This document shows, one piece after another, positions 42,325 to 45,484 of a DNA stretch of 64,000 bases (position 1 is its first letter; every line of letters begins with the position of its first letter). The notes under the pieces were generated by a model. The model saw only the letters and a list, made by a program, of their open reading frames with translations, had not been told where the DNA came from and did not search any database. The position numbers and the translations under genes were made by a program. This DNA is from Eledone cirrhosa (taxonomy: Eukaryota), in NCBI GenBank assembly GCA_964016885.1, contig OZ024747.1, forward strand, positions 77,190,001-77,254,000, written 5' to 3'.

Positions 42325-43962
42325 TTAATGATGATGGTGTACTTGCCATCACTGACGCTGATAAGAAGGTAGCTTGGAAGTGTCACTACGAAAGGCTACT
42401 AAATGAGAACAAATGGGAGAAAGACAGTCTCCCCCACATCGATCCAATAGAGGGACCAGCAGTGTTAGTCGAAGGTAGTATAATAAGTAAGGCAATCAAA
42501 GATATGAAGACGGGTAAGGCGGCCAAGCCTTCGGAAATAGTTGCTGAAATACTGAAAGTTTCTGAAACGGTGGGACACACCATGGTCACCCGGATAGTAA
42601 ACCAAGTCATACAGAATGGGGCCGTTCCGAAGTACTGGCGTAGCAGCATCATCATTAACTGCTAAAAGGGTAAAGGAGATGCTCTTGATAGGGGTAACTA
42701 TAGAGGCATTAAATTAATCGACCAGGTCATGAAGGTCACAGAAAAAGTAATAGCGCAACTAATCAGAAAACGAATTGATCTAGATCAAATGCAGTTCGGG
42801 TTTGTGTCAGGTAAAAGTACCACAGACGCTCTTTTCATTGTACGACAACTACAAGAGAAGTACCTAGCTAAAAGTAAACCCTTATACTTAGCTTTTGTTG
42901 ACTTGGAGAAAGCCTTTGACAGAGTCCCCCGCTCCATTATCTGGTGGGTGGTTAGAAAACTAGGTGTTGATGAATGGCTTGTGAGAGCTATACAAGCCAT
43001 GTATAAAGAAACAGTCAGCAAGGTTAGAATTAACAACGAATATAGTGAAGAGTTTAGCGTAAAAGTTGGTATTCATCAGGGCTCCGTTCTTATCCCCCTA
43101 CTATTTATTATTGCCCTTCAGGCTATAACAGAGGAGTTCAAGACCGGCTGCCCATGGGAACTCCTATATGCAGATGATCTAACGCTTATAGCTGAATCAA
43201 TGGCTGAACTAGAGAAGAAATTCCAAACATGGAAGCATGGCCTAGAATCAAAAGGCCTTAAAGTTAACTTGTCTAAGACTAAAGTTCTAGTTTGTAGGAA
43301 GGAAAATAGGGCACCGGTCCCATCTGGGAAATGGCCATGCTCAGTGTGGAGGAAAGGAGTAGGCAGAAACTCCATTTTATGTCCCAAATGCAAAGTATGG
43401 GTGCATAAAAGATGTAGTGGGATCACAGGTAAGCTAACTAAGAATATAGATTTTATATGTGGCCGGTGCTCTGGGGTAATAAGTAGCAGCAAGTGCCCAC
43501 AGAATACTAGCTCATTCCATTGCACAGATGGTACTATAGAAATAGTGGACACTTTCCGTTACCTGGGTGACAAAATCAGCAGTGGGGGAGGGTGCTCTGA
43601 AAGTACAGTAGCTAGAGTCAGAACGGGATGGAAAAAGTTCAGAGAGCTTATACCACTATTGGCCGCTAAAGGGTTCTCTCTAAAAATGAAAGGGAGGCTG
43701 TATGATGCCTGCATGCGAACAGCAATGTTACATGGCAGTGAGACCTGGGCATTGTGTGCAGAGGATCTGCGCAGACTGGAGAGGAACGAAGCTTGCATGT
43801 TCCGTTGGTTGTGTAATAGTAATATACGTGAATGGCAAAGCATAAACGAACTAAGGGAGAAATTAGGAATAAAAGGAATCAGATGCTGTTTACTCGAGAG
43901 AGGACTACGTTGGTATGGTCACGTGATGCGCATGAAAGATGACAGCTGTATAAAAAAGGTGC
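42325..43962 (+). mobile_element. Internal RT fragment of the same RTE LINE
   Basis: ORF 42729-43973 with HQGSVL.P, YADDL, YLG; truncated at both ends. Confidence 0.92.
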
Positions 43963-44341
43963 ACAATGCCTAGGTCTCACTGCCATATAACTTGGCAGTG
44001 AGACCTGGGCATTGTGCACCGAAAATGATAAACGGAAAAAATGAAACGAAATTTCATTTCCCACTCTTAGTATGGCTGTTACTTAAATATAAGTATGTAC
44101 ACGTACATACATATATATACATACTACTGTATGTCTGTATGCATATATGTATGTACGTGTACATACTTATATTTAAGTAACAGCCGTACTAAGAGTGGGA
44201 AATGAAATTTTGTTTCATTTTTTCCGTTTATCGTTTTCGGTGCACCCGGCCGATTAACCCACTCGATATGCAAATTGGGCTACTCAGCCGTTAATATGCA
44301 TAAGGTAAGTATATACGTTCAACTATCTGGCAGGAAGGTAG

Positions 44342-44384
44342 ACGTTGCTGACGATAGCTAATAAGCTTGAAACTAGTACAGCGT
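44342..44384 (+). ncRNA. Minimal type-I hammerhead ribozyme
   Basis: acgttg CTGACGA t AGCT aata AGCT t GAAA CTAG TA cagcgt; stem I 6 bp, palindromic stem III, GUA site after 44378. Confidence 0.85.
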
Positions 44385-44761
44385 TCCTTTGTCAGTGTTG
44401 AGCAAACGAGCAACGATGGTTGCTAGACACTACGGCTTAATACGGGATGTTTGTTTACAAACACATTGAGCATTATAATAAATGTTCGGTGAATCCATAC
44501 GTACATATATATATGTGTGCATGTATGTATATATATATACATACTACTGTACGTCTGTATACATATATGTATGTACGTGTACATACTTATATTTAAGTAA
44601 CAGCCGTACTAAGAGTGGGAAATGAAATTTCGTTTCATTTTTTCCGTTTATCGTTTTCGGTGCACCCAGCCGATTAACCCACTCGATATGCAAATTGGGC
44701 TACTCAGCCGTTAATATGCATAAGGTAAGTATATACGTTCAACTATCTGGCAGGAAGGTAT

Positions 44762-44804
44762 ATGTTGCCGACGATAGCTAATAAGCTTGAAACTAGTACA
44801 GCGT
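44762..44804 (+). ncRNA. Hammerhead of second tandem unit, core mutated (CCGACGA)
   Basis: Exactly 420 nt downstream of the first; U4C change. Confidence 0.7.
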
Positions 44805-45484
44805 TCCTTTGTCAGTGTTGAGCAAACGAGCAACGATGGTTGCTAGACACTACGGCTTAATACGGTATGTTTGTTTACAAACACATTGAGCATTATAATA
44901 AATGTTCAGTGAATCCATACGTACATATATATATGTGTGCATGTATGTATATATATATATATACATACTACTGTACGTTTGTATAGATATATGTATGTAC
45001 GTGTACATATATATATATATATACATACTACTGTACATTTGTATAGATATATGTATGTACGTGTACATATATAATTTTCTTATTTTACGTCTCTCATATT
45101 ATTGTTCTGCAACCCCATGCATTGAACCACAAAGTTACTAAGACAAAACCTATATATTTGCTAGCATTGATATGCATCTGTATGTATATATATGTTACTA
45201 GATATTAATTCTTTATAATTATCTCCAAATTATTTGTTGAGCAATATTGGCCAAGACTGCTGCTATGGTGGCAGGCAGGCCGCTGTCTTATTAACAAACC
45301 ACTTTCCACTGATTGACCCCGATGTCACGTGATTGATTCTTTTTGAATTTGCCACCGACGCAGAGGCAGTTATTTTCTCAATGGCTAGGAATTCAGTCCA
45401 CGCTTTGCGATTTTCTATCCACTGAATTATTTTTGAATAAGTTTCCAGAGTCCACGCTTTGCCTGGATACTTAGCTGAGAATAG

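What the first reader, a model, noticed from the sequence alone, without database searches (positions are those of the whole stretch)
43958..45070. 420-nt tandem hammerhead retrozyme fused to an RTE LINE fragment
Seen: a non-coding 420-bp unit repeated head-to-tail. Each unit has one minimal type-I hammerhead with a palindromic CTAG stem III, and the predicted cut sites (44378, 44798) are exactly one unit apart. A 105-bp inverted piece precedes the array and joins an RTE RT fragment through a small RTE-derived hairpin (43958-44020); the junctions share GTGCA microhomology. Known: metazoan non-LTR retrozymes are tandem HHR repeats processed to monomers/circRNA, and minimal HHRs with palindromic loop III can cleave as dimers. 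Inference: this is a mollusc retrozyme family giving a 420-nt circular RNA that may be copied by the RTE machinery.
Basis: partly seen in the sequence, partly recalled or inferred. Interest (0 to 1): 0.9.

Follow-up and report, generated by a model that had tools for sequence, protein, structure and literature searches.

The report
Penelope-spread hammerhead repeat; RTE join accidental
This is one copy of an abundant non-coding repeat carrying a predicted self-cutting RNA motif; its copies end at two fixed sites inside AT runs, as Penelope-type jumping genes do, so those enzymes likely spread it, possibly from an RNA circle, and its join to the neighbouring LINE is a one-off, likely a repair scar.

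Summary
In detail: a 420-nt unit (2.2 copies), minimal type I hammerheads with predicted cuts after 44378 and 44798, a 105-nt inverted piece and an RTE-derived hairpin. One correction: the second hammerhead has a core change (U4C).

The RTE idea fails. The junction occurs once in 3.0 Gb, and the unit shares nothing with the RTE 3' end.

The family has 24,157 exact hammerhead-core matches and carries the Penelope-like element (PLE) footprint: head-to-head arms, two fixed 3' ends about 59 nt apart, both running into (AT)n. In 41 of 49 two-armed insertions picked by the far end, the other arm stops at the near end; none stops at the far end. Co-resident RT+GIY-YIG elements show the same two ends.

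Arms run through the predicted cut site (115 passes, 2 stops, 2.4 expected). Units within an insertion are equally alike in every register. That fits a circular monomer template but also young uncut multimers. No RNA evidence was found and no coding partner was identified.

Verdict: a new member of the non-autonomous PLE / animal retrozyme class. The scan reported what looks like this family (e1-8665316) and sister families elsewhere in this genome.

The parts
42325..43963 (+).
   Evidence: RVT_1 E 4e-30, PHD below cut-off; other window copies match up to 43963 and diverge after it
43958..44020 (.). Junction hairpin: 38 nt copied in reverse from the LINE (43719-43756), then folded back; likely an end-joining scar
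   Evidence: alignments; junction found once in the genome with up to 1 mismatch
44014..44118 (-). Inverted (left) arm, unit positions about 62-166; its outer end lies 14 nt beyond the family's usual far end and lacks the (AT)n flank
44107..45009 (+). Forward arm, about 2.15 units of 420 nt, ending a few bases short of the family's near end in a short AT run
44341..44385 (+). Minimal type I hammerhead 1, intact core, palindromic A-CUAG-U stem III, predicted cut after 44378
44761..44805 (+). Hammerhead 2 with core change U4C and changed stem I, predicted cut after 44798; likely impaired
44592..44651 (+). 'Tail' between the two fixed family ends (near end about 44588-44592, far end about 44649-44651); also at 44172-44231; folds as a hairpin between two U/A-rich sites; inferred pair of RT start sites
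45010..45069 (+). 60-nt local duplication of the arm's microsatellite end
   Evidence: TRF period 60
45070..45619 (+). Neighbour: copy of a second, unrelated 522-nt family with the same two-ended architecture and a predicted long-stem-II hammerhead
45617..46330 (-). 3' piece of another copy of the same LINE with its (CAT)n/(TGA)n tail; a bystander

Best explanation
This is a copy of a non-coding 420-nt repeat with a predicted minimal hammerhead, dispersed as head-to-head arms that end at two fixed sites in (AT)n, and it is likely copied into DNA by the RT and GIY-YIG nuclease of a co-resident Penelope-like element rather than by the neighbouring LINE. Shown: copy number, two fixed 3' ends about 59 nt apart, one per arm, (AT)n flanks, random 5' ends, read-through of the predicted cut site, one unit sequence shared by both arms. 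Inferred: the PLE protein nicks (AT)n on both strands; each DNA 3' end primes reverse transcription at one of two internal sites; the two cDNAs are joined at their truncated inner ends. Template (inferred, about 55:45): a monomer circle made by hammerhead cleavage in dimers plus ligation, against an uncut multimer from a young array. At this locus the left arm and the LINE's 3' end were likely lost and rejoined by synthesis-dependent microhomology end joining, which left the hairpin (about 60%); otherwise the hairpin end primed the RNA off-site through the 7-nt match (about 40%).
For: Far end: 2,636 exact junctions into (AT)n against 2,696 read-through matches, controls 0. Of 90 loci picked by the far end, 49 showed an opposite arm; 41 of the 49 end at the near end (BLAST positions 91-100), 0 at the far end, 4 unresolved, 4 other. 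ORF-bearing PLE families in G000 show the same two ends in (AT)n, for example 72 and about 137 nt past the anchor in one family, about 157 and 217 in another. This matches the tail, inverted 5' copy and microsatellite bias described for PLEs (PMC8557442; PMC3846280) and the two RT start sites shown in vitro (PMC11167929). Opposite arms differ by 2.0% against 3.9% between insertions, and share common alleles in 24 of 62 cases against about 6.7 expected (48 insertions). In 44 two-armed insertions, distances are 2.74% (same arm), 2.71% (opposite arm, same register) and 2.57% (opposite arm, other register); 6 independent rare variants sit in all copies across registers, 1 is register-locked. RTE junction unique.
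Against: No coding partner with sequence homology was found: 8 PLE end regions gave no clear match. No RNA data. The hammerhead lacks G10.1-C11.1, which PMC4209133 calls highly conserved, and minimal PLE hammerheads cleave weakly in vitro; 8 of 9 Xenopus dimers did not cleave. Two insertions carry a G8 core change in both of their copies (L010, L011), so cleavage in cis may not be needed. Alternating arrays (L122, L130) look like later local duplication, so long arrays alone do not prove rolling-circle copying. Conversion between arms could also make them alike.
Confidence: 0.85

Rival explanations
1. One reading: the retrozyme RNA is copied by the RTE-type LINE machinery, and the fusion here records that link.
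For: The array is joined to a LINE RT fragment through LINE-derived sequence with microhomology; one other copy of 90 has its 5' end on a LINE fragment (L236). PMC7229834 names LINEs as possible helpers.
Against: Junction unique in 3.0 Gb; best sense match to the LINE 3' end is 9 nt; the family ends internally at two sites in (AT)n, not in a (CAT)n-type tail; LINE pieces are frequent in this window, so contact is expected by chance.
Confidence: 0.03
2. The unit is only the terminal repeat (pLTR) of a coding Penelope-like element, and the copies are its 5'-truncated leftovers.
For: All insertion marks are those of PLEs; truncated copies can outnumber full ones (PMC4209133). My protein screen used only 12 PLE fragments from this genome.
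Against: Arms of up to 8 units contain only the unit, and the tail runs on into the unit's own upstream part. No PLE reading frame continued into a unit in the 179 insertions clustered (screens; read from coordinates) or in 30 more loci. The one candidate (L219) failed: 0 of 14 other copies of that PLE carry the unit. A relaxed hammerhead pattern found only 191 more matches, and nearly all of the 100 listed are variants of this family.
Confidence: 0.08
3. The hammerhead is a vestige. The element moves as an uncut linear transcript of tandem copies, and long arrays grow by local duplication; no circle exists. (Compatible with PLE mobilisation; rival to the circle step only.)
For: Hammerhead mutants still insert in vitro and uncut RNA is the main template for the anole PLE (PMC11167929); G8 changes in both copies of two insertions; alternating arrays from local duplication; no 5' ends piled at the cut site.
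Against: The roughly 80%-identical subfamily found without selecting for the ribozyme (L081) keeps core, stem II and loop III and changes only N7, loop II and one stem I pair on both sides (one event, related sequences). Core sites vary less than the rest, 2.4% against 4.2% (subfamily and CpG sites inflate the latter). A linear copy of an aged array predicts register-locked variants, seen 1 time against 6.
Confidence: 0.4
4. A DNA-level element (Helitron-like or MITE) or satellite whose inverted arms come from palindrome repair.
For: Internal microsatellite and hairpins; no RNA evidence; no A-to-G strand bias (6 against 6 shared, 29 against 26 single).
Against: Fixed 3' ends with random 5' truncation, strict near/far asymmetry, a conserved hammerhead, and the same pattern in RT-coding families.
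Confidence: 0.04

Closest known systems
Animal non-LTR retrozymes (Cervera and de la Pena 2020, PMC7229834, passages read; Li, Clavereau and Pollet 2026, 10.64898/2026.07.22.740005, parts 1-3 of 5 read)
   Same: Non-coding low-GC tandem unit (37% GC) of a few hundred nt with one type I hammerhead per unit; mostly monomers to short arrays; strongly self-paired predicted circle; PLEs co-resident.
   Different: Minimal, not canonical, hammerhead (the 2020 paper ties minimal ones to PLEs); slightly above the 170-400 nt range given there; two-armed, two-ended insertions in (AT)n are not described in the parts read; circular RNA not shown here; no pLTR homologue found, unlike 21 PLE matches for Xenopus families.
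Endonuclease-bearing Penelope-like elements (Penelope/Poseidon, Neptune, Naiad; PMC8557442 and PMC3846280 passages; PMC11167929 parts 1-2 of 4)
   Same: Partial tandems, inverted 5'-truncated copy, a tail on one end only, AT-rich targets, minimal hammerhead with palindromic loop III.
   Different: No ORF; the tail is about 59 nt against 30-40 nt in the reviews (about 60 nt in the anole element); helper family not identified.
Non-autonomous Chlamys elements such as MRC1 (PMC8557442, passage)
   Same: Non-coding, multi-copy head-to-tail insertions moved by a PLE.
   Different: Those resemble their helper's 3' end and mostly lack hammerheads; here only a short end-site resemblance to one PLE family was seen.
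Synthesis-dependent microhomology-mediated end joining (PMC2943611, PMC5728401; search listing and abstract starts only)
   Same: Junction with a short inverted copy of nearby flank, a fold-back and new microhomology.
   Different: The copied stretch lies about 210-245 nt from the break; an RT template jump cannot be excluded.

Membership tests
Animal non-LTR retrozyme | Non-coding tandem unit with a type I hammerhead in each unit | tested here: met
Animal non-LTR retrozyme | At least two consecutive complete hammerheads (the 'active' rule of Li et al. 2026) | tested here: inconclusive
   Not met at this locus (U4C in copy 2); met at many family loci
Animal non-LTR retrozyme | Canonical hammerhead with loop 1-loop 2 contacts (2020 definition) | tested here: not met
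   Minimal form, 1-bp stem III, no G10.1-C11.1; the 2026 preprint counts minimal forms too
Animal non-LTR retrozyme | Self-cleavage; linear and circular monomer RNA in tissue | not testable with these tools
   No RNA holder listed
PLE-mobilised non-autonomous element | Two 3' ends separated by a tail, tail on one arm only | tested here: met
   41 of 49 near/far, 0 far/far; 2,636 far-end junctions
PLE-mobilised non-autonomous element | Inverted 5'-truncated copy head to head with partial tandems | tested here: met
PLE-mobilised non-autonomous element | AT-rich or microsatellite target | tested here: met
   at this locus only the right end has an AT run
PLE-mobilised non-autonomous element | Co-resident coding PLE with the same footprint | tested here: met
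PLE-mobilised non-autonomous element | Sequence homology to one helper's terminal repeat | tested here: inconclusive
   No clear match among 8 families; the far end resembles one family's near end, 0 of 500 shuffles, best of 24 comparisons, picked after the fact
Autonomous PLE | RT plus GIY-YIG ORF between terminal repeats | tested here: not met
RTE-dependent SINE | 3' end shared with the LINE and a simple-repeat tail | tested here: not met
RTE clade (for the neighbouring LINE) | RT phylogeny | not tested
   Only Pfam RVT_1, PHD and AP-type endonuclease hits

The most novel reading that the evidence does not exclude
A Penelope protein dimer loads on one hammerhead-made 420-nt RNA circle and copies it rolling-circle fashion from both ends of a break in (AT)n, each RT starting at its own fixed site 59 nt apart. 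The helper would be the long-ORF Neptune-type family whose start site this RNA mimics without being derived from its terminal repeat.
Probability: 0.35. Interest if true: 0.7.

Novelty: new member of a known kind. Interest (0 to 1): 0.45.

Why it matters
Which enzyme spreads animal retrozymes, and whether an RNA circle is the template, has been proposed since 2014-2020 and argued in 2026 from homology and co-occurrence. This family gives mechanistic marks instead: the PLE two-start-site footprint on a protein-free RNA, in thousands of young copies, next to long-ORF PLEs that could be expressed. That defines a direct test with a known RNA, known start sites and a short list of proteins. The feature that made this locus look special, the RTE fusion, carries no information on the mechanism.

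Tried and rejected
Rfam: no hammerhead model among 102 matches at E<=1.

RNA: no RNA holder listed; this says nothing on expression. Contigs of 4 runs of unrecorded kind cover the unit to differing extents but no listed piece bridges the hairpin junction; a hole proves nothing.

A Pfam accession recalled for a PLE domain was not in the library; the GIY-YIG family was used instead.

Helper search: 20 long-ORF GIY-YIG loci and 30 shorter ones held only separate insertions of the unit. 8 PLE end regions and the 522-nt family gave no clear homology. L219 was rejected. A relaxed hammerhead pattern revealed no other abundant family.

RNA-editing scars, a lead from e1-8803865: no A-to-G bias in 48 insertions.

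5' ends at the predicted cut site: 2 of 136 arms, 2.4 expected.

Alternating unit lengths as proof of a dimer circle: rejected, since in L130 the pattern breaks at the fifth unit, as local duplication predicts.

Octamer promoter lead: the literature search gave nothing relevant, and my octamer count was offset by one base and is void.

Sequence look-ups in earlier findings returned nothing for either unit.

Full report
Observation. The window holds a 420-nt unit in 2.2 tandem copies at 44107-45016. Each copy has a type I hammerhead layout: stem I, CUGANGA, a 4-bp stem II, GAAA, the palindrome A-CUAG-U and a GUA triplet, with predicted cuts after 44378 and 44798. A strict descriptor gives 3 hits in the window and 0 in each of 30 shuffles. 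Copy 2 has U4C and a changed stem I. Stem II has no G10.1-C11.1 pair and is flanked by two Us; the same flanks occur in hammerheads of two ORF-bearing PLE families of this genome, so the variant may be tolerated, but that is inference. The active monomer fold scores -2.7 kcal/mol against -9.5 for the minimum, and a one-core dimer that I drew scores -17.0, in line with the dimer model of PMC4209133 (parts 1-2 of 4 read) and PMC6765202 (passages). The 105-nt inverted piece, the hairpin and the microhomologies are as described.

The family. The window lies at G000:C7:77190001-77254000 in a 3.0-Gb genome. The hammerhead core pattern has 24,157 exact matches, control 0. Copies fall into a 420-430-nt group and a 466-516-nt group about 80% identical, with intermediates. 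The second group, first seen beside a GIY-YIG locus without selecting for the ribozyme, keeps core, stem II and loop III and changes one stem I pair on both sides. On 11 distinct rows that pair is GU 6, UG 3, AU 1, other 1, reached by 7 of 500 shuffles; this is one event among relatives and weak support. In copies chosen by their 3' end, 75 of 89 have an intact core. The unit as a circle folds at -132.8 kcal/mol, z -6.5 against 60 shuffles, partly because of its palindromic microsatellite.

How it inserts. Copies end at two fixed sites about 59 nt apart, each merging through TAT into (AT)n. The far-end junction has 2,636 exact matches and the read-through form 2,696. I took the first 90 listed far-end loci of the 2,636, all on contig C1. 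49 showed a head-to-head opposite arm; 41 of those end at the near site, none at the far site, 4 were unresolved and 4 other. Two of the 90 are one duplicated locus, and in at least 4 of the 41 'single-armed' loci my script stopped the arm early. Inner (5') ends are scattered. This is the tail, inverted copy and microsatellite bias described for PLEs (PMC8557442 and PMC3846280, passages), and PMC11167929 (parts 1-2 of 4) shows in vitro that the tail lies between two internal RT start sites and that both strands of AT-rich DNA are cut and extended. The genome gives its own positive control: 150 scored GIY-YIG matches over the cut-off from 10,595 candidates, ORFs of up to about 940-1,100 codons, RT and GIY-YIG hits in the one long ORF scanned, and several such families ending at two sites in (AT)n. 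'Neptune-type' rests on my reading of a cysteine-rich linker and was not tested by a tree.

The RTE link. The junction pattern occurs once in the genome with up to one mismatch. The unit's best sense match to the LINE 3' end is 9 nt. Among the 90 far-end loci, 4 had LINE protein hits and 1 had the element's 5' end on a LINE piece. At this locus the left arm ends 14 nt past the far site with no (AT)n, and the LINE lacks its 3' end. The 57 nt between the two GTGCA words are a reverse copy of LINE sequence 210-245 nt upstream followed by a fold-back that ends in GTGCACC, the first 7 nt of the arm. That resembles synthesis-dependent end joining (PMC2943611, PMC5728401; listing and abstract starts only). 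I favour later deletion and repair at a palindrome over off-site priming, 60:40, by inference only.

Is it just a terminal repeat? No PLE reading frame continued into a unit in the 179 insertions clustered or in 30 further loci (tblastn with 12 PLE fragments, read from coordinates). One candidate failed a follow-up, 0 of 14 other copies. Arms hold up to 8 units of nothing but the unit. No helper was identified by homology. One lead: the 36 nt before the far end resemble the near end of the long-ORF family at L071/L072/L076 (0 of 500 shuffles, z 3.5, best of 24 comparisons, noticed after the fact), and that family's tail is about 65 nt. I give it about 30% as helper.

Template. Arms pass the predicted cut site 115 times and stop within 296-304 twice, 2.4 expected; 58 of 90 far-end arms pass it once or more. 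So the template was not a cut linear monomer. Both arms come from one source: 2.0% apart against 3.9% between insertions, common alleles shared 24 of 62 times against about 6.7 (48 of 91 insertions kept as close to the window's unit). In 44 canonical two-armed insertions (from 97 of 179 kept), distance does not depend on arm or register (2.6-2.7%). Rare variants were in all copies across registers 7 times (6 independent, 5 insertions), register-locked once, in one arm only 23 times, other 4 times. A monomer circle predicts the first pattern; an aged heterogeneous array predicts the second. Against over-reading: the 23 one-arm cases come mostly from two loci with local duplication, a young homogeneous array or conversion between arms would look like a circle, two insertions carry a G8 change in both copies, there is no A-to-G bias, and in the anole PLE uncut RNA is the main template.

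Comparison with what is known. Circles as templates for more-than-unit PLE copying were proposed in PMC4209133, PLEs as retrozyme helpers in PMC7229834 (passages), and PLE origin from homology in the 2026 preprint (parts 1-3 of 5). My searches for 'octopus, Penelope, hammerhead', 'cephalopod, retrozyme' and 'non-autonomous, Penelope, pLTR, microsatellite, head-to-head' listed no paper on this family or on two-ended retrozyme insertions. The library lacks most subscription papers and Repbase, and I read no supplements; repeat libraries or supplementary tables may already name the family. The host group was not tested. Earlier scan notes report a 422-nt family with ends 59 nt apart, probably this one, and several sister families; I had reached the PLE reading before opening them, and they are not independent support.

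Verdict. Real, a new member of a known kind, with a first reading that is right on the element and wrong on the helper. Interest 0.45, for making the helper and circle questions testable.

Noticed in passing
window 45070-45619 (+); also 56850-57082: Second family, 522-nt unit, 2,579 search candidates; two fixed ends (unit positions 30 and 148, a 118-nt tail) in (AT)n, inverted arms; predicted type I hammerhead with a long stem II, an extra base on each side of it and a 10-nt palindromic stem III. Here its 3' end is fused to the LINE's (CAT)n tail.
   Followed up: partly
window 29269-29553 (-): A third, single-armed copy of the 420-nt family with several changes in the hammerhead core and stem II.
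   Followed up: partly
window 9857-10579 (-), hammerhead at 9568 (-): GIY-YIG end of an abundant PLE family with its own hammerhead and two ends about 60 nt apart.
   Followed up: partly
L071, L072, L076, L080; L041-L088 group: Two coding PLE families carry hammerheads with U3 and A8 in place of C3 and G8 and a CCGG palindromic loop (read by eye); PMC4209133 reports that covariation in a schistosome PLE.
   Followed up: partly
window 33567 (-) and 38043 (+): Two more hammerhead-like motifs from other repeats.
   Followed up: no
window 44268-44275 and 44688-44695: Octamer ATGCAAAT about 75 nt upstream of the hammerhead, in a block kept in the diverged subfamily; an snRNA-type promoter is recalled for newt satellite 2, not confirmed by search.
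   Followed up: partly
G000:C1:96986368-97027300 and C1:51773485-51785023: Clusters of family matches over 10-40 kb, probably long local arrays that could act as master sources.
   Followed up: no
window 42061-42325 and 46333-46846: Inverted blocks of an AT-rich short repeat flank the two LINE pieces at their truncated 5' ends.
   Followed up: no
window 12049-15453: 15-nt minisatellite of 230 copies.
   Followed up: no
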